Source of the DNA: Candidatus Nomurabacteria bacterium
GTDB lineage: Bacteria; Patescibacteriota; Minisyncoccia; Phycocordibacterales; CALRBL01
Length of the DNA: 64,000 nucleotides
Direction: 5' to 3'
Assembly: GCA_963834935.1 (NCBI GenBank)
Contig: CAWIDS010000001.1
Location: 65,338-129,337, forward strand
The position numbers and the translations under genes were made by a program. Below, piece after piece: positions 15,914 to 64,000 of the stretch (position 1 is its first letter; each line of letters starts with the position of its first letter). Under the pieces are notes generated by a model. The model was given only the letters and a program-made list of their open reading frames with translations. It was not told the DNA's origin and ran no database searches.

Positions 15914-15914
15914 C

Positions 15915-25168: not shown

Positions 25169-25171
25169 TTG

Positions 25172-25253: not shown

Positions 25254-25281
25254 ATAATTTTATACTTACCGAATTACCGAG

Positions 25282-25354
25282 TCCACCCAGCAGGGATCGA
25301 ACCTGCGACCTTATCCTTAAGAGGCATCTGCTCTACCAGCTGAGCTATGGGTGG
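25282..25354 (-). tRNA. tRNA-Lys-like (anticodon CTT) with a poorly paired anticodon stem; possibly a pseudo-tRNA
   Basis: The acceptor, D and T arms are good (TAGCTCAGCTGGTAGAGC; GCAGGTTCGATCCCTGC). The anticodon loop is CTCTTAA, but the stem GATGC/GGATA has two mismatches. Confidence 0.5.
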
Positions 25355-37605: not shown

Positions 37606-37608
37606 ATA

Positions 37609-38334
37609 TCATATACTGTCAATAGATACGAGATATGCTTCCGCAACGTACCTGTCGGTCTTCTGGCCGAAGCTATTGCACGTCGACAAAGTCAGCATAT
37701 TCTTTTTGTCCGAAAAATCAACCAATTCTTGAGTAGCATTGACCAGACTGACATCGCCTACCTTGTATACGTACTTTTTTTTCAAGCCGAAAAGGTCAAT
37801 TTCATCGCCGGCTTTAAGATTCTTTATGTTATTGAATACCTGGTATGCCTTGTTATTCACGATGCGATAGCCAGTGCTGTGACCGAAGATAAAGACGTTT
37901 CCTTCCCCTGCAAGGCCGGAGCCGGGATAATAGACAGGCCCATGAGTCAAGGAGTTATCGAGGACAGTGTAATCATCCGATGAAGGATGCACCACGTCAG
38001 CATCCAAGTTTATGGATGGCGCGACTATGCGGAGCGGCGTCTCGCCTTTCGGCGACGAGATGATCTGCGATGAATTCACTTCTGCGCTCGACGTGCCGGT
38101 CAATCCAAGATTCTGAAAAGTGGACTGCTCGATCTGGGTCGCGATGGTATTATCCTGCGTCTGAACTTCGAATTCATTGGGTATGAAGCCGAGAAAGTTG
38201 AGAATGATGCATGTCACGAGAAATACCCCAAGAAATATCCCGGCAAAAAAAAGAGTATTCTTTATGAAATGCTCGTGGGCGGCGTAAAAGGAGTTTTTCT
38301 TCATGGGAATTAGGGTCATTATAGCAGATGACAA
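37609..38334 (-). CDS. Sortase family transpeptidase
   Basis: 241 aa with an N-terminal TM anchor. The catalytic His is in 'IFGHSTGY', the Cys in 'LTLSTCNSFG', and an Arg follows downstream. It sits immediately upstream of the IPATG substrate, with a 3-nt gap. Confidence 0.8.
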   Translation of the reverse strand: MSSAIMTLIPMKKNSFYAAHEHFIKNTLFFAGIFLGVFLVTCIILNFLGFIPNEFEVQTQDNTIATQIEQSTFQNLGLTGTSSAEVNSSQIISSPKGETPLRIVAPSINLDADVVHPSSDDYTVLDNSLTHGPVYYPGSGLAGEGNVFIFGHSTGYRIVNNKAYQVFNNIKNLKAGDEIDLFGLKKKYVYKVGDVSLVNATQELVDFSDKKNMLTLSTCNSFGQKTDRYVAEAYLVSIDSI

Positions 38335-38375
38335 TTTATTGACAAGTATTATATTGTAAAGTATAATCCTGAATT

Positions 38376-39750: not shown

Positions 39751-41827
<2,077 letters not shown>

Positions 41828-51072: not shown

Positions 51073-53331
51073 CTATTGAGAAGTTGTTGACGTCCCGTTG
51101 ATCTGGGCGATATAGGCATCTCCCTGCTTCTCGAAGCCCGGCTCTATGGAAATGATGTCCTTTATCTCACTTATCGCTCCTTGCTTGTCGCCATTCTGAA
51201 GCTTCTGGTTTGCGATATTGAGCTTCATCTGAAGGAGGCTGTTCAGCCTGTCTGTCTGCTTGGTGTCGTAATATGCCCTCAACATGCGTATATCTACTCC
51301 ATCGTCAGTATTCTTCAAGGGAGCAAGTATTTGGTCTGCGGTCTGATTATCTCCGGCATAGATCAAGCCGACAGCATAAACGATCCTAGCATCAGTATCG
51401 TCAGTATCGAGCTCGAATGCCTGCTTGAGAGATGGGACTGCTTCCGCGTATTGGCCATTATTGAGATATGCAGAGCCTATCTCTATAAGAATCGTCTGCT
51501 TCTCTGGGCTGAGCTCATGAGCCTTCTCAAGGTCATCTATCGCCTCCTGAAAAGGAACCGATGACGCGACCTCATGAAGCTTGCTGAGATACGAACCATA
51601 GAAAAGAAAATATCGCGGATCGAGGGGAGTTTCCTTGAGCTGCATGTCCATCTCGCTATTGGTATAGGTGACGAAGGCAGATTTAATATCGCTTGAGACA
51701 TTGAGCTCTAATATCTGTGATGTTCCCTGGAGAAGCTGTTCCCTTGCCTCGGCCGTGCCAGCTGAGCCGTAACCAATCGCGGTCTTGTAAGCGGCAAGCG
51801 CTGCAGTGAAAGCTTCAGGCGTGCCGTTCTGCAAAGCATAATTCTGATAGCTTAAAGCATCGATGAGGGTGCTTGCAGCGAGATACGGGATGGCAACGGT
51901 GTAATAAAAAGTGACCGAGAAGACCGCGATAATCGCTGCCGAACCGAGCCAGAGATATGAGCTGTCCTTGATCGGCGTTGCAAGCCATTTCATATCGAAT
52001 GTTTTCTTCTCGTGGAAGTGGACGAAAGCAAGCACAGCGAAGAACAGGATGTAGCTTGTGATGTTGTCGAAGACGAAGATGTTGTGGATGAAATAAGCGA
52101 TCAAAAGCGAAGTCAGGATGACTTTGTCCGAGAAAAGGAAATACCGATGTTCCGAATCAAGCTTCGATTTCCAGATCGAGTAGATGCATGCGGCGAAAAG
52201 AGAAAGGTATGCGAGCAGTCCGAAGACTCCGCCAGCAATCAGCCAATCGAGGAATACGTTGTGCGCCCGATCGAACCACTGTTCCTGGTCATAAATCTTC
52301 GGATCATAATATTTGGCGAAAACATAATTGAAATTATCCTGGCCCCAGCCGAGAATCGGCCTTTCTTCCACTCCTTTCAAGGCGATGCCCCAGATGCCGA
52401 AACGTCCCTTTCCTTCGGTGCTCGCGAACTGCTCGAGCCCCGACTTGTCGAAAGTGGCGAGTGCGGCGAAGCGGGAAAGCAGATCATGCTGCTTGACGAA
52501 GTTGCTCTGCTTGAACGTAGCAAGAAGCCCCGCCACCAGGACAATCGTGACAATGGCTGCCACGCTTCCATAACGGAGAACCTTGTTCTTCTTCTCGAAG
52601 AATGCGAAAGCGACCGAGGCGAAAAGCACGCCGATAATCAAGCCGATAAGGGCTCCTCGGGTTCCCGTATGATAAAAAATATACAAGTCAAAAAGTGTCA
52701 CGGCAGAATAGATTCCTATGCCGGTCCATTTTATCTCCGGATTCGTCTTGTATTTCATCGAGTGGCGAACCAATAGGAAAACGGCAAGGAAGATATGGAA
52801 GAGCATGTATATGCCAAGATAGGTGGAATTTCCTGTGCGTGCATCAATGCGCTCGATTCCCTGACCGAGCTGGTCAAGTCCGTAGAATCCCATCACCACA
52901 CTCACCGCCAGCGAGGTCTGAAAAAGCCTCTGCCAAATCTTCTCGGTCATGACATTCGAGCTTAGCACAAGGAAATAGATGAAAAGATGGACGTGAGTGA
53001 CGAATCCTTCCATCCGCTCGAAATTTGACCAGAAGCTCTTGTACGGATATATTCCGAAAATGTCGGCCACTCCAATAACGACGAGGAATGTCACCAATGA
53101 AATAGTGATGGCGGTTATTTTCGGGCGGTATTTAGGATCACGTATGGCAAGGATGAGATACAGCTCTCCCGCCAGCTCGACAAGCAGCCTGAAGAGGAGA
53201 TTCTTGCCAGTTATGTAAGGAAAAAAGAGAGAAGAAGAGACAACAAGACAGACGAATGGAATTATGAATAAAAGCGAAACGACCGAATAATGCAAGATCT
53301 TGTTAGTATTCATGTCCTGAAATATTAGCAT
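51073..53331 (-). CDS. O-antigen ligase/polymerase-like (Wzy_C) membrane protein with C-terminal TPR repeats
   Basis: 752 aa. About 12 TM helices include the 'RAHNVFLDWLIAGGVFGL' O-antigen-ligase motif. The C-terminal ~250 aa is TPR-like. Confidence 0.65.
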   Translation of the reverse strand: MLIFQDMNTNKILHYSVVSLLFIIPFVCLVVSSSLFFPYITGKNLLFRLLVELAGELYLILAIRDPKYRPKITAITISLVTFLVVIGVADIFGIYPYKSFWSNFERMEGFVTHVHLFIYFLVLSSNVMTEKIWQRLFQTSLAVSVVMGFYGLDQLGQGIERIDARTGNSTYLGIYMLFHIFLAVFLLVRHSMKYKTNPEIKWTGIGIYSAVTLFDLYIFYHTGTRGALIGLIIGVLFASVAFAFFEKKNKVLRYGSVAAIVTIVLVAGLLATFKQSNFVKQHDLLSRFAALATFDKSGLEQFASTEGKGRFGIWGIALKGVEERPILGWGQDNFNYVFAKYYDPKIYDQEQWFDRAHNVFLDWLIAGGVFGLLAYLSLFAACIYSIWKSKLDSEHRYFLFSDKVILTSLLIAYFIHNIFVFDNITSYILFFAVLAFVHFHEKKTFDMKWLATPIKDSSYLWLGSAAIIAVFSVTFYYTVAIPYLAASTLIDALSYQNYALQNGTPEAFTAALAAYKTAIGYGSAGTAEAREQLLQGTSQILELNVSSDIKSAFVTYTNSEMDMQLKETPLDPRYFLFYGSYLSKLHEVASSVPFQEAIDDLEKAHELSPEKQTILIEIGSAYLNNGQYAEAVPSLKQAFELDTDDTDARIVYAVGLIYAGDNQTADQILAPLKNTDDGVDIRMLRAYYDTKQTDRLNSLLQMKLNIANQKLQNGDKQGAISEIKDIISIEPGFEKQGDAYIAQINGTSTTSQ

Positions 53332-53363: not shown

Positions 53364-54194
53364 ATGCAAGCGAATAGTCCTACAACGGTCATACGGCCCA
53401 AAAAGATATTCAGCCTGAAGGATCTCAGCGAATTGTGGCAATACCGTGAACTGCTCTATTTCTTTTCGTGGCGCGACCTCAAGGTCAGATACAAGCAGAC
53501 TTCGATCGGCGTGGCTTGGGCAATTTTCCAGCCTTTCATCACCATGATCGTCTTCACAGTTTTTTTCGGCAATCTGGCTAAGATTCCTTCCGACGGCGTA
53601 CCATATGCCATCTTCGTCTACGTCGGGCTACTTTTCTGGCAATTCTTCTCAAGCGCCCTTTCCGATACGAGCGACGTGCTCATCTCGAATCAGGCGATCG
53701 TCACCAAAGTATATTTTCCGAGGCTTCTCTTGCCTATCTCAAGCGTCATCACCAAGCTTGTCGACTTCGCCATCGCTTCGGTCATCCTTGTTGGCTTGAT
53801 GGTGTATTACGGATATGCGCCGCACCTCTCCGGACTTCTGATTCTTCCGCTGCTTCTCGTCATCTCATTCATGGCATCAGTCGGCGGCGGATTAATACTT
53901 GCATCTGTGAATGTAAAATACCGAGACGTCCGCTACGCACTTCCCTTTTTCATACAGATCCTGCTTTTCGTCACGCCGGTCATCTATTCTTCAAGCATTG
54001 TCGGAAAATATTCCTGGATACTGGCCATTAACCCGATGTCGGGAGTGATACAAAGCGCCCGCGCTGCCCTTCTCGGCACCGCACCGATAAACTGGAACCT
54101 GATCGGCATATCATTCCTGGCGACGACCCTGCTCATGATCGGTGGCATCTATTTCTTCAAAAAGACTGAACAGTATTTCGCTGACATCATATAA
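53364..54194 (+). CDS. wzm: ABC-2 type polysaccharide exporter permease (Wzm/TagG/KpsM-like)
   Basis: 276 aa with the ABC-2 topology 6-TM permease signature. Confidence 0.8.
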   Translation: MQANSPTTVIRPKKIFSLKDLSELWQYRELLYFFSWRDLKVRYKQTSIGVAWAIFQPFITMIVFTVFFGNLAKIPSDGVPYAIFVYVGLLFWQFFSSALSDTSDVLISNQAIVTKVYFPRLLLPISSVITKLVDFAIASVILVGLMVYYGYAPHLSGLLILPLLLVISFMASVGGGLILASVNVKYRDVRYALPFFIQILLFVTPVIYSSSIVGKYSWILAINPMSGVIQSARAALLGTAPINWNLIGISFLATTLLMIGGIYFFKKTEQYFADII

Positions 54195-54203
54195 ATACGA
54201 GCA

Positions 54204-55460
54204 ATGGAAAAAGCAATCATCGAAGTAAAGAATATCGGAAAGAAATATAATATCTCGCATCAGCGTGGCGGCTATGTCGCCTTGCGCGATGTCATCGCTG
54301 GCGTTTTCAAGACGCCGTTCAAATTCCTCAAGCAGAAGGTCAAACAAGTGACAGGCTTCAAGACTAAAGAAGAATTCTGGGCGCTCAAAGGCGTCAACTT
54401 CGAGATCAAGAAGGGTGAAGTAGTCGGCATCATCGGCAGGAACGGCGCGGGCAAGTCGACCCTTCTGAAGATACTTTCCCAGATCACCCCTCCCACTGAA
54501 GGGGAAATAAAGATTTACGGCCGCGTCGGCTCGCTGCTCGAAGTAGGCACCGGCTTTCACCCTGAACTTACCGGCCGCGAGAATATCTTTCTCAACGGCG
54601 CCATCCTCGGCATGACGAAGAAAGAAATCGTTCGAAAATTCGACGAGATCGTCGCCTTCGCCGGTATTGATCGCTTCCTTGATACTCCCGTCAAACATTA
54701 CTCAAGCGGAATGTACGTGCGTCTCGCTTTCTCCGTCGCTGCCCACATGGAGCCGGATATTCTTATTATCGACGAAGTGCTTGCCGTCGGAGACGCCGAA
54801 TTCCAGAAGAAATGCCTCGGCAAGATGGAAGAGATCACCAAGGGCGAAGGACGTACCATCCTTTTCGTCAGCCACAACATGGGAGCGGTCCAGCAGCTTT
54901 GCAAGAAATCGATCCTGCTCAAGGAAGGCAAAGTAGATTATATCGGCCCGACCGAGACTGCCATCTCGAAATACATGGATGCCTCACTGAACAAGGACTC
55001 GGGAAAAATGGATTTGAGAAAATTCAACGGCAGCCTTTCAAGCAAGGCATCTTTCACCGACATTTATATAAATGACGGCGATGGATTCGCCAATATAAAA
55101 CCTTCTTCAGCAATCACCATCAAGGCGAAAGGTGAGATAATTGAAGAAATCGAGCTGTTCAACGTCTCTTTCTCAGTTTATGCGAAAGGAATAAGGCTTT
55201 TCACTACGGAAGATGTCGAGACTCCTTCAACAATCAAGAAAGGCTTGTTCGAATCGGAAATTGTCATTCCTGCATACATGCTCCGACCCGGAAATTATTC
55301 CATCGGCCTTGGCGGTTGGAACGAACGGGGCGATTGGCTCTACGCCGAAGATGTCGGGCATTTCAATATCCTTGAGGAATGGGACATGGCGAATAAAGAG
55401 GCCCATTTCGGCATCATCAATATTCCCGTAAAAGGAAAACGTACTATCCATGAAAAATGA
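54204..55460 (+). CDS. wzt: Polysaccharide ABC exporter ATPase (Wzt/TagH-like) with a ~170-aa C-terminal extension that may be a carbohydrate-binding module
   Basis: 418 aa. Walker A 'GRNGAGKST', signature 'YSSGMYVRLAF' and Walker B 'ILIIDEVLAVGD' are followed by an extra C-terminal domain. Confidence 0.8.
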   Translation: MEKAIIEVKNIGKKYNISHQRGGYVALRDVIAGVFKTPFKFLKQKVKQVTGFKTKEEFWALKGVNFEIKKGEVVGIIGRNGAGKSTLLKILSQITPPTEGEIKIYGRVGSLLEVGTGFHPELTGRENIFLNGAILGMTKKEIVRKFDEIVAFAGIDRFLDTPVKHYSSGMYVRLAFSVAAHMEPDILIIDEVLAVGDAEFQKKCLGKMEEITKGEGRTILFVSHNMGAVQQLCKKSILLKEGKVDYIGPTETAISKYMDASLNKDSGKMDLRKFNGSLSSKASFTDIYINDGDGFANIKPSSAITIKAKGEIIEEIELFNVSFSVYAKGIRLFTTEDVETPSTIKKGLFESEIVIPAYMLRPGNYSIGLGGWNERGDWLYAEDVGHFNILEEWDMANKEAHFGIINIPVKGKRTIHEK

Positions 55461-56916
55461 GAATTCAAAAAAAGTGGCATTGGTGACGCTTGTCACCGGC
55501 GAAGAATACAGCAAACTCTATTACGAGCACTTCTTCCCTTCGCACCAGCGATTCGCCAAGAAGCACGGACTTGACCTGATCGTGCTCAAAGACCGCATCG
55601 ACAAGAGCGAATACGGCATGGCTCGTCACCCTTCATGGCAGAAGCTGCTCATCTTCCAAGCGCCGGAGACTGCAGGCTACGAAAGGCTGTGCTGGATTGA
55701 TGCCGACATCTATATCACCTATCATGCCAAGAACCCTTTCTTTGAGGTGAAAAAAGGCTATTGGGGCGCTGTCAGGAACAATCCCTTCGGTTTCGACTAT
55801 CTCAACAAGACTGATCTCGAGCTGTACGCTTTCTGTCCGACAGAAAACAGGCCTTTATATATATTGAATGGCGGATTCTTCGTCGTTGAAAAATCGGAGC
55901 ATCAAGCCCTCTTTGAAAAGGTCTACAAAGATTACCCTGAACAGCCATGCTACGAGCAAGGTCCGCTTTCATACCACCTGATCAACGAGAAGAAAGGCGT
56001 CGAGCTTCCGCCTTCTTGGAATTGCATCCAGCCGAATTATTTTAATTTTCATCAATCCCAGAACAAGATCGTCCGGATATTCAATTTCGTCATGGAAAAT
56101 GATTTCATACATTTCTGCGGAGGAATCAATTGGAAGATATTCCGAACGGCCAGTTTTCTCGACAATACGCTGGCTGACTTCGATACCATCTCTAAAACCA
56201 GATTCATGAGAAAGGTAGGAAAGGTGTATTCGAGAATCCTGGAAAAATTAAGCAAGTTGGAGCGAAAGAACGAAGATGAAGAGAAACTCGAAACGTATCA
56301 CGCTGAAAATGCGCGGCTTGAGAATGAATTCGATTCCCTTCCGCCGCCCAAAAAGCTCCATTTCGGCTGCGGGCCGCGCGTGCTCAAAGGCTGGATCAAC
56401 ATTGATCTTTTCTTTGAGCCATACGAACAATACATGAAAAGCTATACGGCTGAATTTTACGGAGAGGAGATGCGTGGAAGCCGGAATGAGTTCTATGCGA
56501 TCGATATCATCAAGACCGGTCTGAATCTTCCGGATAATTCCGTCGATGTAATCTTCCACGAGGATTTCATCGAGCATCTGAGCGAAAAGGAGCAGGTCAT
56601 ATTCCTCGCGGAAACTTTGCGCGTTCTCAAACCCGGCGGGATCCACCGCATCAACACGCCTGAGCTTCTCATGGCTATGAAAAAATCCCGCTTTGCAGAA
56701 GGTAAAGCCGGCGTCTACGAAGCGGAATGGAATAATCACGGCCATTTCAACATCCTAACCAAACGGAACATGGAAGAACTTGCGCGCATGGTCGGATATT
56801 CGAGTATAGTATTCAATTCAAGAAATAATAGTACGTCGAAAATGATCCCTAAAGAATACAGACCAGCACCAGACAGACCAGAGGATGGAAATATTTTTGC
56901 TGATCTCATTAAATAA
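55450..56916 (+). CDS. Bifunctional GT-A-like glycosyltransferase (N-terminal) and class I SAM-dependent methyltransferase (C-terminal)
   Basis: 488 aa. The N-terminus has 'ALVTLVTGEEY...CWIDADIYI' (DxD). The C-terminus has 'LHFGCGPRVLKGWINIDL', 'EDFIEHL' and 'LRVLKPGG' methyltransferase motifs. Confidence 0.6.
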   Translation: MKNENSKKVALVTLVTGEEYSKLYYEHFFPSHQRFAKKHGLDLIVLKDRIDKSEYGMARHPSWQKLLIFQAPETAGYERLCWIDADIYITYHAKNPFFEVKKGYWGAVRNNPFGFDYLNKTDLELYAFCPTENRPLYILNGGFFVVEKSEHQALFEKVYKDYPEQPCYEQGPLSYHLINEKKGVELPPSWNCIQPNYFNFHQSQNKIVRIFNFVMENDFIHFCGGINWKIFRTASFLDNTLADFDTISKTRFMRKVGKVYSRILEKLSKLERKNEDEEKLETYHAENARLENEFDSLPPPKKLHFGCGPRVLKGWINIDLFFEPYEQYMKSYTAEFYGEEMRGSRNEFYAIDIIKTGLNLPDNSVDVIFHEDFIEHLSEKEQVIFLAETLRVLKPGGIHRINTPELLMAMKKSRFAEGKAGVYEAEWNNHGHFNILTKRNMEELARMVGYSSIVFNSRNNSTSKMIPKEYRPAPDRPEDGNIFADLIK

Positions 56917-57735
56917 ATGAATAGGATAAAGAAGATATTGCCGGCCGGAATAAAGAATTTTCTCAAAGGAGTCATTTCCTTTTTCCGCGCCTCAGTGGAC
57001 CTGATAAAAAGAAGGAAGAGGCGATTCTTGCGTACATTTTCAAAAAACAGCGAGGCCGGATACTCATTTGCCATCCTTGCCGTCAAAAAGACCGCCTACA
57101 TCGACATGGCGATAGACAACATCAATTCCCTTCACTATATCAATCCGAATCATCACGTAACCCTTTACTGCGATACTGCCTGCTTGGAATATGTCTCAGG
57201 GAAAAAAGATAAGCTTGATTACCCACAAAAGGTCGCGATCATAGACTCATACGGAAAAGAAGACAGGCCGTGGCAAGAAAGCAAGATCGATACCTTGATC
57301 GATGCCAGCCGCAAAGGAATGATACTGACTGATGCCGACGGCATATGGCATGAGGATCCAATTGTCGACCCGGAAAAAATAACCATGCTCGTCATCGTCA
57401 ACAAGATAAAGGAAAAGGTGGACGAGCTGCAGCTCGTCGAGACTCTCTTCAAGAAAGAATGGGGCGATTTCACCCATTATGTGACAGGATTCGTCTCTAT
57501 CCCATCACGACTAATGACGGAAGAAGTCGCCGCTGACATGAGATCATTCAACGCGCTCATTTTCACCGAAGGAAAGGGCTTGAAAAGGCTTTCGGAAGAG
57601 CTCTCCATAAATCTCGCTCTGCAATCTCACTATCCCGCAGAGCTTTTCTCGACGCTGAAGGACGAAGATGGTCCGGGAAGCACCTCATCTCTTCAATCGC
57701 TTTATTACGGCTGCCTCAATGAGATAACCGAATAA
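56917..57735 (+). CDS. Hypothetical protein, possible nucleotide-sugar transferase-like
   Basis: 272 aa with a 'LTDADGIW' DxD-like motif. Otherwise unrecognised. Confidence 0.35.
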   Translation: MNRIKKILPAGIKNFLKGVISFFRASVDLIKRRKRRFLRTFSKNSEAGYSFAILAVKKTAYIDMAIDNINSLHYINPNHHVTLYCDTACLEYVSGKKDKLDYPQKVAIIDSYGKEDRPWQESKIDTLIDASRKGMILTDADGIWHEDPIVDPEKITMLVIVNKIKEKVDELQLVETLFKKEWGDFTHYVTGFVSIPSRLMTEEVAADMRSFNALIFTEGKGLKRLSEELSINLALQSHYPAELFSTLKDEDGPGSTSSLQSLYYGCLNEITE

Positions 57736-57736
57736 T

Positions 57737-58621
57737 ATGGATAAGCTTCAAAAAAAGATACATAACCGCATGATCCGCATCAGGAAATTCCTTGTCGCTC
57801 ATTCGGGCAATCCGAGGCCTTCCAGCTATCCGTATGTCAGCGGCGATACTTTCCGGGCCATCGCGGATCATATTCATGATGACCTGAAGACAGTTGATAC
57901 TTCAAAAGTAAAAGAAGCTGATATTATTTTCGTCAAAATATCATATATAAAAGAATTCTTTGAAAAGATCCATCCTCACATAAAATTTCCATATAAGCTC
58001 ATCACTCACAATGGCGATATCCTGATCGACGAAAAGTTGTCGACATACGCGGACGAAAAAATCATCAAGTGGTATGGGCAGAATGTCACGATAAATCATC
58101 CTAGGATCGTTCCGCTGCCGATCGGCCTCGAGAATATCTCCTACTGCAACAGTGGCCTGCCTAAATATTTCAATCGGCTCAGGATAAAGAGCCTGCCTAA
58201 AAAAAATCGAATACTCTTCGGCTTCAATATCATGACCAACAAGGAAAAGCGTCAGCAAGCGGAAAATGTCCTACTCTTCCTTCCCGTCGCCGACAAGATA
58301 CAAGGCTGGCCCGGAGCGAAAAAATATCTCGAACTTGCGGCATCGTACGCTTTTGTCGCTTCTCCCGAAGGCAACGGTATCGACTGCCACCGCACGTGGG
58401 AAGCCCTTTATCTTGGTGCTGTCCCCATCGTCACCTCTTCGCCGGTAACTGAGCACTTCAAAAGCATTGGATTCCCTCTTTTTGTGATCAAGGATTGGAA
58501 AGAGCTGTGTGGACTTACTGAAAATGATCTGAAAAAAAAATATCACGAGCTTCAGGATTCATTTGACAAAAGCCTCCTTCGAGCCGATTATTGGTTTAAT
58601 CTCATATGCCCGAAAAAATGA
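57737..58621 (+). CDS. Exostosin-like (GT47-like) glycosyltransferase
   Basis: 294 aa. The C-terminal motif 'FVASPEGNGIDCHRTWEALYLGAVPIV' is typical of the exostosin family. Confidence 0.45.
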   Translation: MDKLQKKIHNRMIRIRKFLVAHSGNPRPSSYPYVSGDTFRAIADHIHDDLKTVDTSKVKEADIIFVKISYIKEFFEKIHPHIKFPYKLITHNGDILIDEKLSTYADEKIIKWYGQNVTINHPRIVPLPIGLENISYCNSGLPKYFNRLRIKSLPKKNRILFGFNIMTNKEKRQQAENVLLFLPVADKIQGWPGAKKYLELAASYAFVASPEGNGIDCHRTWEALYLGAVPIVTSSPVTEHFKSIGFPLFVIKDWKELCGLTENDLKKKYHELQDSFDKSLLRADYWFNLICPKK

Positions 58622-59805
58622 AGCCTCGTCTCTCCATAATAATGCCCTGCTATAATTGCGCCTCGACGCTTGAGGAATCGCTCGATTCCGCATATGCGCA
58701 GGCCCTCACCATTCCTTTCGAGATAATAATGGTGGATGACGGATCGACTGACAAGACAGCAGGATTGATAAAAAAGCTCGCTTCGAAGCATCCGGAAATA
58801 AAGACACTCGCGCATGAAATAAATCGCGGCGGGGGAGCGGCGCGAAATACCGGCATCAAGAACTCTTCCGGAGAGCTGATTTTCTGCCTCGATAGTGATA
58901 ATGTGCTCGGTCCGGGATCGCTCAATGCCCTGATCTCCTATCTCTCAGAAAAGAAGGCGGACGCTGTTGCTTTCGGCGAGCGTCGCTTCTTCATCGGCAA
59001 TAACCTCAGCAAATTCCGCGCCGAGAAATATCCCGTCACAAGCGAACCTTTCCCTTTTATCGGCCTCTTCAAGGAAAAGGCCGTTCTCCTTGATAATTTT
59101 CTTTTTACCAAGGAATCATTCCTCCGCACTGAGGGTTATCCCGAACATCACGGCTTCGATACCCAATGCTTCGAGATCCGTTATCTTTTATCGGGAGCCA
59201 AGCTGTATATTGTTCCTGATGCAATCTTCTACCATCGACAGGTTGGAGGCAAGAAATCATATTTTGAGAGAGTGTATGAATCAGGAGAATTTTCCAAGAA
59301 CTTCTATCTCATATATGAGGATTTATTTTGTCTTTTTTCTCCTGAAACGAGGAAAGCAATAATCAATTTCAACATCTTCAGGCAGAATACCTTGGACGAC
59401 CAAAGCCTTCCAAAGATGATAGAAAAGCTTTACATGAAAGATCCCGGCAGCTTTCTCGTCAAAAATTACGAAAAATTCACGGCGCCGTCTGCCTTTGAAG
59501 ATACGATCGATGGACTCTTCTGCAAGGCGATATTTCTCTACAAAGACAAAAAATTTAAGGAAGCTCTCGATTGCTACGCTACATTGGCTGAAAAAGGGCT
59601 CGATACGCCAATCCTTCACTTCAACATGTTGAGAAATACCTTGGCCCTCGCCTATCCCAATGACCTCGTCTCCATTGAAAAAAGGGTTTCAGCCGTTCTC
59701 GATTCCATGAGCGTCAAAAGAAGGAGAATCGACATGAGGAATGGTATTATAAGGAGAATAATTAATAAGATAAAAAATGAATACGACAAGACTGCAGAAA
59801 ATTAA
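58606..59805 (+). CDS. GT2 family glycosyltransferase with a C-terminal TPR-like region
   Basis: 399 aa. GT-A motifs 'SIIMPCYNCASTLEESL', 'MVDDGSTDKT' and 'DSDN' are present. Confidence 0.75.
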   Translation: MPEKMKPRLSIIMPCYNCASTLEESLDSAYAQALTIPFEIIMVDDGSTDKTAGLIKKLASKHPEIKTLAHEINRGGGAARNTGIKNSSGELIFCLDSDNVLGPGSLNALISYLSEKKADAVAFGERRFFIGNNLSKFRAEKYPVTSEPFPFIGLFKEKAVLLDNFLFTKESFLRTEGYPEHHGFDTQCFEIRYLLSGAKLYIVPDAIFYHRQVGGKKSYFERVYESGEFSKNFYLIYEDLFCLFSPETRKAIINFNIFRQNTLDDQSLPKMIEKLYMKDPGSFLVKNYEKFTAPSAFEDTIDGLFCKAIFLYKDKKFKEALDCYATLAEKGLDTPILHFNMLRNTLALAYPNDLVSIEKRVSAVLDSMSVKRRRIDMRNGIIRRIINKIKNEYDKTAEN

Positions 59806-60560
59806 AAGGAAAGTTGGAAAGATACCGTTTGCCGCGCCGCTGTATCACTCGCTCAAAGGAAGCTATTATTACGCCGATTTCATCAGGGATTTTTTCGCAT
59901 TCAAGAAGATGTCCGGCGCTAATCCCCGCTTCCCCCGTATCGTGGACCAGGCAGTACCCATGCCTTACTGACAAGACGTCCATCACCGGCTTCGAGCCGC
60001 ACTACCTCTACCATCCTGCATGGGCTGCCCGCATCATCGCTGAGGTCAAGCCGAAGCTTCATATCGACTTCTCTTCGATCCTTCATTTCAGCACCCTTGT
60101 CTCGGCATTCGTGCCGGTCCATTTTTATGATTACCGCCCGGCTGACATAAAGCTGAAAAATCTCGAATGCAAGAAAGGAGACTTGCTTGCTATGCCTTTC
60201 GCTGACAGTTCCGTCGAATCGCTTTCGTGCATGCATACCATCGAGCATGTCGGCCTCGGCCGCTACGGCGATCCGCTTGATCCCGAAGGCGACCTCAAGG
60301 CAATCAAAGAACTCATCCGAGTGCTTGCACCAGGAGGCACGCTCATCTTCGTCACCCCGATCGGTAAAGCAAAACTCGAATACAATGCGCACCGCATCTA
60401 TTCATATGCACAGATAAAAAGCTATTTCAAAGAACTTACTCTAAAAGAATTCTCTCTCATTCCCGACAATTTCCTTGAAACAGGAATAGTAAAAAATGCG
60501 ACAGAAGAATTAGCTGACAAGCAAGAGTGGGGCTGCGGCTGTTTCTGGTTCACGAAGTAA
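59777..60560 (+). CDS. DUF268-like SAM-dependent methyltransferase, apparently frameshifted near 59960
   Basis: The 64-aa ORF (59777..59971) ends '...FPRIVDQAVPMPY*'. The coding then continues in another frame, '..TDKTSITGFEPHYLYHPAWAAR...LAPGGTLIFVTPIG' (59814..60560). Confidence 0.5.
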
Positions 60561-61344
60561 AGCCGAGCAGCTTCTTGTCTTCTTCGTCAATCGGCGTCTC
60601 ATATAGATCCTTGTACTGGTGAAGGATTGAGATGTCGTGCAATTCATTCTTTCTTTTATCGAAATCCACGTACCATGTCTCACAGAGGCCCTTGAACGGG
60701 CCGATAGTTCCACCATGATAGAGCACGAGCAGGCTGATCCAAATATCGCTGACGAATTTATCCCAGTGCACATGGGGCCTTATTTTTTCGATATCGCCTT
60801 CGACATCAGTGAAATGCTCGAGAATAAATGACTTCTTGACGATACAGCCGCCGAAGCCTCCCCAATAATAATTCCTTGTCCAAAAAGGAATGCTCTTATT
60901 CCTCTTTTTCAGGAATTTCGTTTCATTGCGCCCGAGCTGCATGGCGGGATTGTTTCCGTTTATGGTGAATGGCAGCTGCTGCCGAACCACATCCATCACG
61001 AGAACATCGTCTTCAAGAAGAAGGATATAGTCCTCCTTTATATATTTCGCCGCATCGACGAGACGATGAAGCCATGAGATGAGACGGTCAGGATTCTCGA
61101 ATACGTTCGATACGCCATTCCCTGTATTGAAGCTCTCATTCTTATAGCGGACATTGAAATGCTCGGCAAGCTTCGAAAAATCATCGCCTCCGTCGCCGAC
61201 GACGTACATGTCGGAATCCGGATAATATTTCCTGAAGGAAGATATAACCGAAATGACCGCCTTCGGCCGCTTGTAGCACTGATAGAAGGCCCCTATAGAC
61301 GGATATTCACTCATGATAAGATGATAGCATGCAAAGCGATCCAT
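60550..61344 (-). CDS. Hypothetical protein, possible GT-A-like transferase
   Basis: 264 aa with the acidic motif 'YILLLEDDVLV'. Confidence 0.35.
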   Translation of the reverse strand: MDRFACYHLIMSEYPSIGAFYQCYKRPKAVISVISSFRKYYPDSDMYVVGDGGDDFSKLAEHFNVRYKNESFNTGNGVSNVFENPDRLISWLHRLVDAAKYIKEDYILLLEDDVLVMDVVRQQLPFTINGNNPAMQLGRNETKFLKKRNKSIPFWTRNYYWGGFGGCIVKKSFILEHFTDVEGDIEKIRPHVHWDKFVSDIWISLLVLYHGGTIGPFKGLCETWYVDFDKRKNELHDISILHQYKDLYETPIDEEDKKLLGFTS

Positions 61345-62210
61345 TAGCGACTCCGGCTCTTCTCATCATATTCAACCGCCCGGACGCATCAAAGCGGCTC
61401 CTTGAGCGGCTCAGGGAAATAAGACCTGTGAGGATTTTCATATCTGCCGACGGTCCGCGATCAGATAAGCACGGCGAAAAAGAGTTGTGCGAAAAGACGC
61501 GGGCAGTGTTCGATTCCATCGATTGGCCTTGCGACATCAGGAAGAATTACCATGAGCAGAATCTCGGCTGCGACCCGCACATCATTTCCGCTGTCGACTG
61601 GCTTTTTGAATATACCGAATCTGGCATCATCCTCGAAGACGATTGCCTTCCCGATCCTACCTTTTTTCCTTTTTGTGCGACGCTGCTTGAAAAATACAAG
61701 GACGACCGGCGAGTAATGCATATTAACGGGTCTAATTTCCAATTCGGCAACATCCGCGGCAACGGAAGTTATTATTTCTCGCACTATGCCCACAGCTGGG
61801 GCTGGGCAACGTGGAAAAGGGCTTGGGCTGATTTCGGCACGACAAAGGCATTCGCGCCTTTTTCTAAAGACCAGAAAGAAAACAGGTTCTGGCTTAATTT
61901 CTTCGAGAAGATATCTGCCGGCAAATATCCGTTCTGGGACGCGCGCTGGCTTTTCACTATCTGGTCGGAGGGAGGTATCGTCATCACTCCGAACAGCAAC
62001 CTCATCACCAACATCGGCTTCGGCAAGGAAGCCACGCATACCAGCATCGAGGAAAAGATCATGAACCAGCCGACAATTCCGATGAAAGAGATCATTAATC
62101 CTTCGTCCGAGGAAATAAATGCCGAAGGTGACGCTTTCACTTTTAAGGTATATTATTATCGAACACACCTTCAGAAAATCATCCATAAGCTTAATTCCCT
62201 CTTAAACTGA
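61329..62210 (+). CDS. GT-A fold glycosyltransferase with an EDD motif (GNT-I-like)
   Basis: 293 aa. 'LLIIFNRPD...RIFISADGP' and 'IILEDDCLPDPTFF' are present. Confidence 0.45.
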   Translation: MQSDPLATPALLIIFNRPDASKRLLERLREIRPVRIFISADGPRSDKHGEKELCEKTRAVFDSIDWPCDIRKNYHEQNLGCDPHIISAVDWLFEYTESGIILEDDCLPDPTFFPFCATLLEKYKDDRRVMHINGSNFQFGNIRGNGSYYFSHYAHSWGWATWKRAWADFGTTKAFAPFSKDQKENRFWLNFFEKISAGKYPFWDARWLFTIWSEGGIVITPNSNLITNIGFGKEATHTSIEEKIMNQPTIPMKEIINPSSEEINAEGDAFTFKVYYYRTHLQKIIHKLNSLLN

Positions 62211-62211
62211 C

Positions 62212-63066
62212 ATGATCATCACCAGACTCGGCGGCGGCCTCGGCAACCAGATGTTCCAATACACCATAGGCAGGGCGCTTGCCTTGAAGAATAATGACGT
62301 CCTCAAGCTCGACATCAGCACTTACACGCCCGAATACCCACGCCAGTACGGCCTTAAGCATTTCAATATCGACGAGCATTTCGCTACGCCTGAGGAATCA
62401 CGGAAACTCCGACTGCCTTACGGCTTCTTCTCGCGCGTCATCCGCTCTTTTCGCGCCCGGGTGCTCCGCCAATTTTACGTCGGTTATCATCCTGAAGTGA
62501 TGGAAAGAAAAGGCGACGTCTTCCTCGAAGGATTCTGGAAAAATGAGAAATACTTCTTGGATATAGAGCAGGTCATCAGGAAAGACTTCACTTTAAAAAA
62601 TCCCCTTTCAGCAATGTCCCGAGCATTCAAGGAAAAAATTCAAGCGGAACGGATATCAGTCTCCTTGCATGTGCGCCGAGGCGACTATGTCAATGATGAA
62701 AAGACAGGTATCTATCACGGCGTCTGCTCGCCTGAGTATTACCGCAAAGCAATAGAGAAAATAAAGGAAAAATGTCCGGCATTCATCCTTTTTGTCTTTT
62801 CAGACGACATCCTGTGGGTCAAGGAGAACATGAAGTTCGACATTCCGGCAGTATACGTCTCGCACAAGGACATTCCCGACTATGAAGAGCTTGTCCTGAT
62901 GAGCCTCTGCTCGCACAACATCATCGCCAACAGCACTTTCAGCTGGTGGGGGGCATGGCTTAATGCTAATCCTGAAAAGATAATCATCGCTCCTTACCGA
63001 TGGCTCGCTAAGACCGGTGACGACCATTACAAGGAAGTGCCTGACTCGTGGATCAAGATACGATAA
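62212..63066 (+). CDS. Alpha-1,2-fucosyltransferase (GT11)
   Basis: 284 aa. The N-terminal GT11 signature 'RLGGGLGNQMFQY' and 'HVRRGDY' are present. Confidence 0.8.
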   Translation: MIITRLGGGLGNQMFQYTIGRALALKNNDVLKLDISTYTPEYPRQYGLKHFNIDEHFATPEESRKLRLPYGFFSRVIRSFRARVLRQFYVGYHPEVMERKGDVFLEGFWKNEKYFLDIEQVIRKDFTLKNPLSAMSRAFKEKIQAERISVSLHVRRGDYVNDEKTGIYHGVCSPEYYRKAIEKIKEKCPAFILFVFSDDILWVKENMKFDIPAVYVSHKDIPDYEELVLMSLCSHNIIANSTFSWWGAWLNANPEKIIIAPYRWLAKTGDDHYKEVPDSWIKIR

Positions 63067-63067
63067 T

Positions 63068-64000
63068 ATGGAAAAAATTCCTTATGATATAGTCATTGTC
63101 GGAGCGGGAATCTCGGGTGCGACCCTTGCTGAACGTTATGCCAATATCCTCGGCAAGCATGTGCTTATCATCGAGAAGCGCGACCACATCGGTGGAAACT
63201 GCTATGACAGCAGAAATGACGCAGGTATACAAGTCTCCAAATACGGCCCTCACTATTTTCGCACCAACGACGAACGCGTGATGGAATATGTCAGCACATT
63301 TTCCGAGTGGGTGCCTTTCGAAGCAAAGTGCCTGAGCCATGTGGATGGCAAGAAGGTGCCTGTGCCGGTAAACATCGATACGGTCAATTCCCTTTTCAAT
63401 CAGAAAATCACCAATGAAGCGGAAATGAAGGAATGGCTTTCGCATGAGACAGAAGACATTCCTGAACCGCAGAACTCCGAAGAATCGGCTCTCAAGCGAG
63501 TAGGCAGAAAGCTCTATGAGAAGATGTTCAAGAATTACACAATAAAGCAGTGGGACAAGGATCCAAAGGAGCTTGAAGCAAGCGTCATGGATCGCATCCC
63601 TGTGCGCTTCAATCACGACGACCGGTACTTCACCGACAAATACCAGATGTATCCCAAAGAGGGGTATGAAAAGATATTCAGGAACATGTTGGCAAGTCCC
63701 TTGATTAAAGTACGGACAGGAAGCTCGTGGGAAGAGGTATCTAAAGAAGTTCGAGGATATGAAAAACTCTTCTTCACAGGCACCATCGATTCGTATTTCA
63801 ACGAGGAATTCGGCAAGCTCGAATACCGCTCGCTCCGTTTCGAGGAAGAGACGCTTGACCAGGAATTCTTCCAAGACGCCGTGCAGGAAAACTATCCCGA
63901 TAATGCCATTCCCTTCACCCGCATCGTCGAATACAAGCATCAGACAAAGCAGGTTTCCCCGCGAACAACGATTGTGAGAGAATATCCTACATGGGAAGGC
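63068..64000 (+). CDS. glf: UDP-galactopyranose mutase, 3'-partial (continues beyond the window)
   Basis: Manual translation starts 'MEKIPYDIVIVGAGISGATLAERY...GGNCYD...GPHYFRTND' and includes 'YTIKQWDKDP'. The frame is open to the window end. Confidence 0.85.
   Translation, partial: MEKIPYDIVIVGAGISGATLAERYANILGKHVLIIEKRDHIGGNCYDSRNDAGIQVSKYGPHYFRTNDERVMEYVSTFSEWVPFEAKCLSHVDGKKVPVPVNIDTVNSLFNQKITNEAEMKEWLSHETEDIPEPQNSEESALKRVGRKLYEKMFKNYTIKQWDKDPKELEASVMDRIPVRFNHDDRYFTDKYQMYPKEGYEKIFRNMLASPLIKVRTGSSWEEVSKEVRGYEKLFFTGTIDSYFNEEFGKLEYRSLRFEEETLDQEFFQDAVQENYPDNAIPFTRIVEYKHQTKQVSPRTTIVREYPTWEG

What the first reader, a model, noticed from the sequence alone, without database searches (positions are those of the whole stretch)
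54204..56916. Extended Wzt next to a glycosyltransferase-methyltransferase fusion: candidate chain-length terminator/cap system
In the E. coli O8/O9a paradigm a terminator enzyme adds a methyl or phosphomethyl cap, and the Wzt C-terminal domain recognises that cap before export. Here a 418-aa Wzt has a ~170-aa extra C-terminal domain. It overlaps the start of a 488-aa protein that fuses a DxD glycosyltransferase-like domain to a class I SAM methyltransferase (GCGPRVLKG / LKPGG). This arrangement fits that logic but uses different domains (GT-MTase rather than kinase-MTase).
Basis: inference. Interest (0 to 1): 0.55.

Follow-up and report, generated by a model that had tools for sequence, protein, structure and literature searches.

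The report
Capped-glycan exporter with glycosyltransferase–methyltransferase fusion
A surface-sugar gene cluster in a probable candidate-phyla-radiation bacterium pairs an export pump that carries a sugar-cap-reading domain with an enzyme that fuses a sugar-adding domain to a methyl-adding domain; this is a new domain combination of the known "finish the chain, tag its end, then export" scheme, not a new kind of system.

Summary
Wzt (54204-55460, 418 aa) has an ABC ATPase domain plus a 163-aa C-terminal domain. That domain models confidently as a β-sandwich, and its 16 best PDB matches are all Wzt carbohydrate-binding domains. The next gene overlaps Wzt by 11 nt (55450-56916, 488 aa). It fuses a GT8/GT34-like retaining GT-A domain (invariant DxD and His) to a class I SAM methyltransferase through an amphipathic helix.

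The methyltransferase family is a recurrent partner of extended Wzt: 27 of 42 independent metagenomic lineages with enough flank have such a Wzt upstream, and 17 loci abut or overlap it. The GT domain is an optional add-on (fused in 4 loci, a separate gene in one), so it does not stand in for the WbdD kinase. The host looks monoderm (sortase, CdaA, RNase J; nearest named relatives are Patescibacteria), so this is not an O antigen.

The closest precedent is the Geobacillus S-layer glycan cluster (TPR protein, oligosaccharyltransferase, wzm, wzt, and the methyltransferase-glycosyltransferase WsaE). These clusters carry many methyltransferases, so cap versus internal methylation is unresolved. 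This is a new variant of a known kind, of moderate-to-low interest.

The parts
51073..53331 (-). 752-aa polytopic Wzy_C (O-antigen-ligase-type) protein with C-terminal TPR repeats, divergently transcribed. Candidate extracytoplasmic transferase that moves the exported glycan onto its acceptor.
   Evidence: Pfam Wzy_C E 7.5e-21 (residues 212-376) and TPR_19/TPR_2 (residues 615-686). The same architecture (733 aa) lies in sister cluster L088. In G. stearothermophilus the equivalents are two genes, wsaA (TPR) and wsaB (oligosaccharyltransferase) (PMC2943079).
53364..54194 (+). Wzm, the ABC-2 permease of the glycan exporter (276 aa).
   Evidence: Pfam ABC2_membrane E 1.2e-16; NCBIfam galactan_ABC_perm E 2.5e-21, below cut-off. 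Ends 9 nt before wzt.
54204..54965 (+). Wzt nucleotide-binding domain (residues 1-254).
   Evidence: ABC_tran E 1.4e-23. PDB hits: A. aeolicus Wzt 8dku E 1.2e-69, TarH/TagH and RfbE.
54966..55460 (+). Wzt C-terminal carbohydrate-binding domain (residues 255-418), the predicted reader of the glycan terminus.
   Evidence: AF2 pLDDT 90.9, all-β. The top 16 Foldseek PDB hits are all Wzt CBDs. Wzt_C scores 22.9 bits, below the 30.4 cut-off; 27 of 37 aligned homologues hit Wzt_C. Subfamily-conserved residues include LRPGxYS, GG and W378. This CTD subfamily is small: 114 representatives at E<=1e-3 among 1.84 billion.
55450..56175 (+). Fusion protein, N-terminal retaining-type GT-A glycosyltransferase domain (residues 1-242), GT8/GT34-like.
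   Evidence: Foldseek hits: A64R-D1 2p6w E 2.8e-10 (TMt 0.68), glycogenin and XXT1; viral GT34/GT8 proteins. D84-x-D86 and H221 (HFCGG) are invariant in 4 homologues. Homologues P0003 and P0026 carry precomputed weak PF01501 (GT8) hits.
56185..56331 (+). Long linker helix (residues 246-294). Its first half is a strongly amphipathic basic helix, possibly a membrane-interface element.
   Evidence: AF2 gives a single helix 246-294 at pLDDT about 75. Residues 250-268 are the most amphipathic 18-mer of the protein (μH 0.83, net charge +5). Heptad a/d hydrophobic occupancy is at most 0.47, a weak coiled-coil signal. Linker length varies from about 0 to about 100 aa among homologues.
56347..56916 (+). 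Fusion protein, C-terminal class I SAM-dependent methyltransferase domain (residues 300-488), the candidate cap-forming (terminal O-methylating) module.
   Evidence: Methyltransf_11 scores 31.8 bits against a 21.2 cut-off. Foldseek hits SAM MTases 4iv8, 3dli and 7f1e. Invariant residues: GCG306-308, D319, D352, D366, HEDFIEH370-376, K394, G396. Family members lie downstream of extended Wzt in 27 of 42 lineages.
56917..57735 (+). 272-aa protein of unknown family, abutting the fusion's stop codon. Conserved partner in sister cluster L088.
   Evidence: No Pfam or PDB hit. A homologue at 46% identity lies directly after Wzt in L088. Its 'TDADG' motif suggests a GT-A, from sequence reading only.
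57737..58621 (+). 294-aa GT47/RXYLT1-like putative glycosyltransferase.
   Evidence: RXYLT1_C E 9e-6 and Exostosin_GT47 E 0.04, both below cut-off. Proteins of 287-290 aa that Pfam calls Exostosin_GT47 recur in L002, L087, L089 and L091. Only one locus matched this ORF by tblastn at E<=1e-6.
58606..59805 (+). 399-aa GT2 glycosyltransferase, the most frequent co-occurring GT.
   Evidence: Glycos_transf_2 E 4.3e-33. tblastn homologues are found in 40 of the fetched loci.
59814..60560 (+). Second methyltransferase of the cluster (DUF268 / Methyltransf_11). The annotated TTG start is uncertain.
   Evidence: DUF268 E 1.3e-15; Methyltransf_11 E 1.4e-6. Homologues occur in 13 loci, for example L021 at 57% identity.
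60550..61344 (-). 264-aa protein of unknown family on the opposite strand.
   Evidence: Only noise-level Pfam hits (GT2 E 0.15) and no PDB hit. The 'LLLEDDVLV' motif hints at a GT-A, from sequence reading only.
61329..62210 (+). 293-aa protein of unknown family that recurs in related loci.
   Evidence: No Pfam or PDB hit. tblastn homologues are found in 23 fetched loci.
62212..63066 (+). GT11-family (α1,2-fucosyltransferase-type) glycosyltransferase.
   Evidence: Glyco_transf_11 E 1.1e-34. Also present in L088 and on the P0033 contig.
63068..64000 (+). UDP-galactopyranose mutase (Glf), truncated by the window end. The cluster continues beyond the window.
   Evidence: PF03275 GLF E 3.6e-57; TIGR00031 E 4.3e-88.

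Best explanation
This is the export-checkpoint core of an ABC-transporter-dependent surface-glycan pathway in a monoderm, probably Patescibacteria (CPR), bacterium.

Proposed steps:
1. A polyprenol-linked glycan is built on the cytoplasmic face by the cluster's glycosyltransferases (the GT8/34-like domain, GT2, the GT47-like protein, GT11 and others), with Galf supplied by Glf.
2. The 488-aa enzyme sits at the membrane through its amphipathic linker helix. Its retaining GT-A domain adds an α-linked sugar at or near the non-reducing end.
3. Its C-terminal SAM methyltransferase O-methylates the terminal residue.
4. The methylated terminus is bound by the β-sandwich carbohydrate-binding domain at the C-terminus of Wzt, which licenses export through Wzm/Wzt.
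5. Outside the membrane, the divergently encoded Wzy_C-TPR protein transfers the glycan to its acceptor. That acceptor is a protein or cell-wall component, not lipid A.

Shown here: the domain identities and folds, the operon structure with start/stop overlap, and the conserved linkage between this MTase family and CBD-bearing Wzt.

Inferred: that the methyl group is terminal, that it is what the CBD reads, the donor and acceptor of the GT, the membrane role of the helix, and the final acceptor.
For: - The CBD fold is of Wzt type, including the 3-O-methyl-mannose-binding Aquifex CBD 8dky (TMt 0.72).
- wzm, wzt, the fusion and the downstream GT genes form one tight + strand block with overlapping or abutting codons.
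- Class I MTase motifs are intact and invariant. The DxD and His of the GT-A are invariant.
- Co-occurrence: the fusion's orthologues sit next to a Wzt with a homologous CTD in L001 (49% identity overall) and L003/L004 (45%, 23-nt overlap).
- Among 80 metagenomic loci found through the MTase domain, 27 of 42 lineages (clustered at 90%, with >=1.2 kb of upstream sequence) have Wzt upstream on the same strand. Seventeen loci are within ±100 nt of it. The Wzt C-terminal extension is 153-176 aa in all but two loci (L008, L052) whose Wzt ORFs look interrupted. Median pairwise MTase identity among the linked loci is 61%, so the linkage spans diverse lineages.
- A split version exists: L021/L091 has Wzt, then GT-A (327 aa), then MT21, then the MTase (238 aa).
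- Precedents: WsaE (MTase plus GTs) overlaps wzt, and its 2-O-methyl cap is proposed to be read by Wzt (PMC2943079). The Aquifex CBD binds only the methylated sugar (PMC9445017). PBCV-1 A064R, whose domain 1 is the best structural match to this GT domain, fuses GTs to an MTase that methylates the terminal rhamnose (PMC9614988).
Against: - There are no chemical data on the glycan.
- The cluster holds a second MTase (DUF268). Sister clusters hold 3-6 MTases plus B12-radical-SAM enzymes, so methylation may be mostly internal.
- The MTase family also pairs with Wzt proteins whose CTD is not detectably similar to this one (13 loci). One Wzt of the same CTD subfamily (L087) has no member of this MTase family nearby. 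The pairing is therefore not one-to-one.
- 15 of 42 lineages show no Wzt in the visible flank.
- The Pfam Wzt_C score is below its cut-off.
- The MTase is not detectably related to the WbdD MTase beyond the common fold.
- Conserved gene order among related organisms could inflate the apparent linkage.
Confidence: 0.55

Rival explanations
1. The fusion's methyltransferase is a decorating enzyme. It methylates internal residues of a heavily methylated polymer. The Wzt CBD reads something else: a cap made by the DUF268 methyltransferase, or a unique terminal sugar such as Fuc or Galf added by a dedicated GT.
For: Related clusters contain many MTases of different families (MT21/FkbM, MT24, MT23, DUF268, B12-radical SAM), and this cluster has a second MTase at 59814-60560. 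The MTase-CBD pairing is not one-to-one: 13 loci have dissimilar CTDs, and L087 has the same CTD subfamily without this MTase. Known caps also include sugars such as Kdo (PMC11231755).
Against: Of all the MTase families present, this one most often takes the position abutting or overlapping wzt (17 loci), whereas DUF268 lies further downstream. Methylating every repeat would not explain such tight coupling to the CBD-bearing subunit.
Confidence: 0.3
2. The Wzt C-terminal domain is not a cap reader. It binds the polymer backbone non-specifically, or serves only in dimerisation or regulation, so no termination checkpoint exists. The adjacency of the fusion gene is ordinary operon packing.
For: The Wzt_C HMM score is below its cut-off. 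Sequence identity to characterised CBDs is 12-20%. No binding-pocket residues could be verified.
Against: All characterised Wzt proteins with this domain use it to recognise a terminal modification (PMC11231755, PMC9445017). The fold match is specific: TM is 0.58-0.73 for Wzt CBDs against 0.34-0.50 for the next best folds. The subfamily conserves surface motifs including a Trp. The linkage to one MTase family persists across diverse lineages.
Confidence: 0.1
3. The 488-aa 'fusion' is an assembly or frameshift artefact that joins two separate genes.
For: The same contig carries a gyrB broken into at least four frames (39751-41827), so indel errors or pseudogenes do occur in this assembly.
Against: Three independent homologues from JGI, Logan and ENA assemblies have the same contiguous GT-MTase architecture. 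The exact 488-aa product is on record from NCBI, Logan and ENA. AF2 models a continuous helix across the junction.
Confidence: 0.02

Closest known systems
S-layer glycan (slg) cluster of Geobacillus stearothermophilus NRS 2004/3a: wsaA (TPR), wsaB (oligosaccharyltransferase), wzm, wzt, wsaE (PMC2943079)
   Same: Both hosts are monoderm and use an ABC-transporter-dependent protein-glycan pathway. In both, wzm, wzt and the next gene have overlapping stop/start codons. That next gene encodes a multidomain enzyme combining an O-methyltransferase with glycosyltransferase domain(s), and the methyl cap is proposed to terminate the chain and be read by Wzt. A Wzy_C-type transferase and a TPR module are encoded alongside.
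   Different: - WsaE has the MTase at the N-terminus followed by two rhamnosyltransferase domains. Here there is one GT8/34-like retaining GT-A at the N-terminus and the MTase at the C-terminus.
- The TPR and transferase modules are fused into one 752-aa protein here.
- This cluster has Glf and GT11 but no rml genes within the window, so the sugar chemistry differs.
- Sequence relatedness to WsaE could not be tested because no WsaE sequence was available to the tools.
E. coli O8/O9a (K. pneumoniae O5/O3) WbdD terminator with Wzt-CBM
   Same: The logic is the same: a cytoplasmic terminator modifies the non-reducing end (methyl in O8, methyl-phosphate in O9a), and a C-terminal β-sandwich on Wzt must bind it before export. 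The CBD fold matches 2r5o (TM 0.65-0.66).
   Different: - There is no kinase domain and no long C-terminal coiled coil with a polymerase-recruiting region.
- The MTase shows no WbdD hit by sequence or profile search, and WbdD is absent from the 50 Foldseek matches listed.
- The host has no LPS.
- The GT domain is not an analogue of the kinase, because most family members lack it.
Aquifex aeolicus WzmWzt with a CBD that binds 3-O-methyl-mannose/rhamnose (PDB 7k2t, 8dku, 8dky)
   Same: It is the closest solved relative of this Wzt by sequence (E 1.2e-69, with the alignment running into the CBD). The CBD fold matches (TMt 0.72-0.73). It is an experimentally proven methyl-cap reader.
   Different: CBD sequence identity is only 15-18%. 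Equivalence of the methyl-pocket residues (Leu300, Thr346, Ala348, Trp362) was not established; W378 here is only a candidate counterpart.
K. pneumoniae O7 ORF6 and O12 WbbB (terminator and GT modules in one coiled-coil protein) (PMC11231755)
   Same: The terminator and glycosyltransferase modules sit in one polypeptide, separated by a helical spacer, and work with a CBM-bearing Wzt.
   Different: Those proteins have long coiled-coil rulers, an MTase-kinase pair or a Kdo transferase as terminator, and GT2/GT4-type polymerase modules. Here the spacer is a single 49-residue helix with weak heptad character, and the MTase acts alone.
Chlorovirus PBCV-1 A064R (GT-GT-MTase)
   Same: Its domain 1 is the best structural match to the N-terminal domain here (2p6w, E 2.8e-10, TMt 0.68). 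A064R also ends in a class I SAM MTase, which methylates the terminal sugar that the GT domains have just added. A 638-aa BFVD protein (M1IF74), not named in the search output, aligns over 420 columns.
   Different: A064R is a viral enzyme for a capsid N-glycan. It has no lipid carrier or ABC exporter, it has an extra middle GT domain, and sequence identity is only 11-14%.

Membership tests
Wzt carbohydrate-binding domain (Pfam Wzt_C PF14524; structures 2R5O, 5HNO, 6O14) | Located directly C-terminal to the NBD of a Wzm/Wzt-type ABC exporter ATPase | tested here: met
   ABC_tran covers residues 61-192, followed by a 163-aa extension. Wzm is encoded 9 nt upstream.
Wzt carbohydrate-binding domain (Pfam Wzt_C PF14524; structures 2R5O, 5HNO, 6O14) | β-sandwich/jelly-roll fold superposable on solved Wzt CBDs | tested here: met
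   The AF2 model has pLDDT 90.9. The Foldseek top 16 are all Wzt CBDs, with TM 0.58-0.73 and E from 3e-7 to 2e-5. This rests on a predicted structure, not an experimental one.
Wzt carbohydrate-binding domain (Pfam Wzt_C PF14524; structures 2R5O, 5HNO, 6O14) | Scores above the Pfam gathering threshold for PF14524 | tested here: not met
   Scores are 20.2 bits (whole protein) and 22.9 bits (domain alone) against a 30.4 cut-off, with E 6e-4 and 9e-5. Of 37 aligned homologues, 27 hit Wzt_C at E<=0.01 (best 2.8e-17). This is a divergent subfamily.
Wzt carbohydrate-binding domain (Pfam Wzt_C PF14524; structures 2R5O, 5HNO, 6O14) | Binds the modified non-reducing terminus of its cognate glycan and is required for export | not testable with these tools
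   This needs ITC or crystallography with the cap sugar, plus in vivo export assays.
WbdD-type terminator (E. coli O9a/O8) | Kinase domain paired with the methyltransferase (O9a type) | tested here: not met
   No kinase family appears in Pfam or NCBIfam, and the fold search finds only GT-A and MTase domains.
WbdD-type terminator (E. coli O9a/O8) | Extended C-terminal coiled-coil ruler with a membrane anchor and polymerase-binding region | tested here: not met
   There is one internal 49-residue helix (246-294). Heptad a/d hydrophobic occupancy is at most 0.47. Nothing follows the MTase domain.
WbdD-type terminator (E. coli O9a/O8) | MTase domain homologous to the WbdD MTase | tested here: not met
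   WbdD is absent from the phmmer and profile PDB hits at E<=1 and from the top 50 Foldseek hits. Only the generic class I fold is shared.
WsaE-like bifunctional MTase-GT chain builder/terminator (S-layer glycan) | O-methyltransferase and glycosyltransferase domain(s) in one polypeptide, encoded next to and overlapping wzt | tested here: met
   The GT-A and MT11 domains lie in one 488-aa ORF that overlaps wzt by 11 nt. The comparison is with the description in PMC2943079.
WsaE-like bifunctional MTase-GT chain builder/terminator (S-layer glycan) | Sequence homology and the same domain order as WsaE (N-terminal MTase, two rhamnosyltransferase domains) | not testable with these tools
   No WsaE sequence was available to the tools. 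The domain order is reversed and there is only one GT domain, so at best this is an analogue.
Class I SAM-dependent methyltransferase | Rossmann-like fold with a glycine-rich motif I, an acidic residue at the end of β2, and motifs II/III | tested here: met
   Methyltransf_11 scores above its gathering cut-off. GCG306-308, D319, D366 and LKPGG394-397 are present. Foldseek hits SAM-bound MTases.
GT8/GT34-like retaining GT-A glycosyltransferase | GT-A fold with a DxD motif plus a downstream His (HxxG) for Mn2+/nucleotide-sugar binding | tested here: met
   Fold matches to A64R-D1, glycogenin, XXT1 and BoGT6a. D84, D86 and H221 are invariant. The window protein has no Pfam GT8 hit, while two homologues carry weak PF01501 hits. 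CAZy family assignment and stereochemical outcome were not determined.

The most novel reading that the evidence does not exclude
The GT8/34-like domain and the methyltransferase together form a dedicated two-step cap synthase. The GT adds a unique non-repeat α-sugar to stop polymerisation, the MTase then methylates it, and the Wzt CBD subfamily reads that methylated sugar. The amphipathic, length-variable helix between the two domains positions them at the membrane and influences chain length. This would be a previously uncharacterised terminator family that governs surface-glycoprotein glycans across Patescibacteria.
Probability: 0.15. Interest if true: 0.55.

Novelty: new variant of a known kind. 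Interest (0 to 1): 0.35.

Why it matters
Cell-surface glycan assembly in CPR/Patescibacteria is almost unstudied. These ultra-small, mostly episymbiotic bacteria depend on surface contacts with hosts.

This locus and its roughly 30 relatives indicate that they use the terminate-tag-export checkpoint known from LPS O antigens and Gram-positive S-layer glycans. They do so with an uncharacterised methyltransferase family as the likely terminator, and sometimes with a GT fused to it.

If confirmed, this would add a new terminator family and a new CBD specificity to the toolbox for glycoengineering with ABC-transporter pathways. It would also give a handle, a methylated terminal epitope, on CPR surface glycans.

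It does not overturn any current concept.

Tried and rejected
- Searching the big protein index with the CBD alone found nothing, because too few words were shared. The exhaustive phmmer run and the full-length Wzt search replaced it.
The taxonomy therefore rests on the nearest named homologues and on gene content.
- The GTDB representative-genome scan found only two N-domain-only relatives, in Sandaracinaceae. The window's genome is not among the representatives.
- The afdb50 fold library was unavailable.
- A coiled-coil 'molecular ruler' reading of the linker was considered. It is not supported by heptad analysis. The amphipathic-helix reading fits better.
- A relationship to WbdD was looked for by sequence, profile and fold search and was not found.
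- The 272-, 264- and 293-aa neighbours gave no Pfam or PDB hits.
- The 63053-63940 (-) ORF was rejected as spurious, because the + strand there encodes Glf.
- The idea that the fusion is an assembly artefact was rejected.
- The Mann, Kimber and Whitfield 2019 Glycobiology survey of terminators and CBMs could not be read, so its overlap with this MTase family is unknown.

Full report
**Observation.** The second starts 11 nt before the first ends. They lie in a tightly packed + strand block:
- wzm, 53364-54194
- wzt
- the fusion gene
- a 272-aa ORF that starts on the base after the fusion's stop codon
- a GT47/RXYLT1-like gene
- a GT2 gene
- a DUF268 methyltransferase gene

Further on are two unknown genes, a GT11 gene and a truncated UDP-galactopyranose mutase gene at the window edge. 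Divergently upstream lies a 752-aa Wzy_C (O-antigen-ligase-type) protein with TPR repeats.

**The Wzt C-terminal domain.** The N-terminal 255 residues are a standard Wzt/TagH-type NBD. The best solved relative is full-length Aquifex aeolicus Wzt (E 1.2e-69), and the alignment runs into the C-terminal domain.

Pfam Wzt_C hits the extension only below threshold: 20.2 bits in the whole protein and 22.9 bits for the domain alone, against a cut-off of 30.4.

I built an alignment from full-length homologues and modelled residues 255-418. The model has pLDDT 90.9 and is an all-β domain of nine strands. In a Foldseek search of the PDB, the top 16 matches are all Wzt carbohydrate-binding domains:
- the Kdo-cap reader of serotype O12 (5hno)
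- the E. coli O9a domain (2r5o)
- the Aquifex domain, including the 3-O-methyl-mannose complex (8dky)

Their TM-scores are 0.58-0.73. The next folds (NPC2, GM2 activator, Der p 2, RhoGDI) score 0.34-0.50.

The domain belongs to a small, divergent subfamily: 114 representatives at E<=1e-3 among 1.84 billion proteins. The subfamily has conserved motifs (LRPGxYS, GG, W378, GxIN). W378 may correspond to the methyl-stacking Trp362 of Aquifex, but I could not verify this.

**The fusion protein.** Methyltransf_11 matches residues 349-399 above its gathering score (31.8 vs 21.2 bits). The N-terminal half has no Pfam hit at all.

The AF2 model from a 46-sequence alignment has pLDDT 91.9. It shows three parts:
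- an α/β domain, residues 1-242
- one long helix, residues 246-294
- a Rossmann domain, residues 300-488

By Foldseek, the N-domain matches retaining GT-A enzymes. Domain 1 of chlorovirus A64R is best (E 2.8e-10, TMt 0.68), followed by glycogenin (GT8), xyloglucan xylosyltransferase (GT34) and BoGT6a. The C-domain matches SAM-bound class I methyltransferases. Viral GT34/GT8 proteins and viral GT-MTase fusions also match.

In the four full-length homologues, the following residues are invariant:
- in the GT: D84-x-D86, and H221 in an HFCGG motif that resembles the GT8 'HxxG' metal-binding motif (that resemblance is from my own knowledge)
- in the MTase: GCG306-308, D319, D352, D366, HEDFIEH370-376, K394 and G396

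The linker varies from almost nothing (P0003) to about 100 residues (P0002). In the window protein, the first half of the linker is the most amphipathic 18-mer in the protein (μH 0.83, net charge +5), and its heptad character is weak. I read it as a membrane-interface helix inherited from the C-terminal tail of the stand-alone GT, rather than as a coiled-coil ruler. This is inference.

**Is the fusion real?** gyrB on the same contig is split over at least four frames, so the assembly or genome does contain indels. However, three independent assemblies carry the same contiguous architecture, and the exact protein is recorded from three sources. The fusion is real but rare: only 3 of 139 homologues are full length.

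**Co-occurrence.** The fusion's orthologues sit beside a Wzt with a homologous C-terminal domain in L001 (49% identity, one gene apart) and in L003/L004 (45%, with a 23-nt overlap). L002 is too short to tell.

A metagenome scan retrieved 80 loci through the MTase domain. After clustering the MTase sequences at 90% identity, 42 lineages have at least 1.2 kb of upstream sequence. Of these, 27 have a Wzt upstream on the same strand. In the per-locus count, 17 loci are within ±100 nt, many with 1-19-nt overlaps.

In all but two of these loci the Wzt carries a 153-176-aa C-terminal extension; in L008 and L052 the Wzt ORF appears interrupted. Median pairwise MTase identity among the linked loci is 61%, so the linkage is not a single clone. 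MTase relatives at 41-43% identity are not Wzt-linked.

Most linked MTases are stand-alone proteins of about 190-250 aa. The GT-A module is fused in only four loci. In L021/L091 it is a separate gene placed between wzt and the MTase. Stand-alone GT-A homologues also lie in Wzm/Wzt-CBD clusters. The conserved partner of the CBD-bearing Wzt is therefore the methyltransferase, and the GT is an optional companion.

**Context and host.** The window is ordinary chromosome, with TopA, ParB, DnaE, aminoacyl-tRNA synthetases and tRNAs. It carries monoderm markers: sortase, MurJ, CdaA, RNase J, and PKD/CARDB surface proteins. The nearest named Wzt and GT homologues come from Paceibacterota, Patescibacteria and Minisyncoccota. 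I infer a CPR bacterium without LPS. The exported glycan is therefore probably destined for a protein or the cell wall, transferred by the Wzy_C-TPR protein.

**Mechanism.** The best-supported reading (confidence about 0.55 for the specific cap claim, about 0.9 for the pathway type) runs as follows:
1. Cytoplasmic GTs build a lipid-linked glycan.
2. The bifunctional enzyme adds a sugar and O-methylates the terminus.
3. The Wzt CBD recognises the methylated end and licenses export.
4. The ligase-like protein completes the transfer.

The main rival (about 0.3) is that this MTase decorates internal residues. The basis is that this cluster has a second MTase, and sister clusters carry up to six, plus B12-radical-SAM enzymes. 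The MTase-CBD pairing is also not one-to-one.

**Comparison with known systems.** The closest described system is the S-layer glycan cluster of Geobacillus stearothermophilus NRS 2004/3a. It has a TPR protein (WsaA), an oligosaccharyltransferase (WsaB), wzm, wzt and wsaE with overlapping codons. WsaE combines a 2-O-methyltransferase with two rhamnosyltransferase domains, and its methyl cap is proposed to be read by Wzt (PMC2943079).

Compared with the E. coli O8/O9a paradigm, the CBD logic is shared. However, there is no kinase, no coiled-coil ruler and no detectable WbdD-type MTase. Multi-module terminator-GT proteins are also known in Klebsiella O7 and O12 (PMC11231755). A GT-GT-MTase that builds and methylates a glycan terminus is known in chlorovirus A064R (PMC9614988).

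**Verdict.** This is a new variant (new domain families, new order, new phylum) of a known kind of system. It would not surprise a specialist much. Its main value is as a pointer to an uncharacterised, Wzt-linked methyltransferase family and to CPR surface-glycan biology. Interest is 0.35.

Noticed in passing
window 39751-41827 (- strand): gyrB is split into at least four ORFs in different frames: HATPase_c at 41399-41827, an unassigned piece at 41071-41412, DNA_gyraseB at 40543-40983 and DNA_gyraseB_C at 39751-40479. This means either a pseudogene or indel errors in the assembly. It is a caution for ORF boundaries elsewhere on this contig.
   Followed up: partly
window 63068-64000 (+): A UDP-galactopyranose mutase (Glf) gene runs off the window end, so the glycan cluster continues beyond the window and probably uses galactofuranose. 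The 295-aa ORF listed at 63053-63940 (-) is spurious.
   Followed up: yes
window 35932-39734: A sortase (37609-38334, -) is flanked by a PKD-repeat protein (35932-37605, -) and a CARDB-like protein (38376-39734, +). This looks like a Gram-positive-style surface-protein anchoring module, and these proteins are candidate acceptors for the glycan.
   Followed up: no
window 13964-14869 (-): A single 301-aa ORF combines a NusB domain (residues 7-136) with a NUDIX hydrolase domain (residues 189-283), an unusual pairing.
   Followed up: no
L087-L091 and the P0033 contig: Sister Wzm/Wzt-CBD clusters are packed with methyltransferases of several families (FkbM/MT21, MT24, MT11, MT23, DUF268). Some are fused to GT2 domains (670- and 492-500-aa MT24-GT2(-MT21) proteins), and B12-binding radical-SAM enzymes are present too. 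This suggests heavily and perhaps C-methylated glycans in these bacteria.
   Followed up: partly
L060:5094-11204: An ORF of about 2036 aa contains the same MTase module (56% identity), a second weaker MTase-like segment, and flanking GT2 domains. This is a giant multi-module glycan-assembly protein with no Wzt in the visible flank. The ORF call comes from my own script.
   Followed up: no
L016:1058-2671 (P0007, 537 aa): Another fusion variant sits directly after a CBD-bearing Wzt (6-nt gap). It has an N-terminal FkbM/Methyltransf_21 region joined to the same MTase module, giving a double-methyltransferase protein.
   Followed up: no
L005, L006 (Sandaracinaceae MAGs): The only relatives of the GT-A domain found among GTDB representative genomes are N-domain-only proteins (31% identity) in two myxobacterial Sandaracinaceae genomes, far from the CPR context.
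   Followed up: no
window 59814-60560 (+): The DUF268-type methyltransferase ORF is called from a TTG, and its first roughly 40 residues have no counterpart in the L021 homologue (alignment starts at residue 42). The true start is probably further downstream.
   Followed up: no
window 15684-15914 and 25171-25354: Two small tRNA groups are present: divergent tRNA-Leu(taa)/tRNA-Leu(caa), and adjacent tRNA-Leu(tag)/tRNA-Lys(ctt). No other Rfam family reaches threshold anywhere in the window.
   Followed up: no
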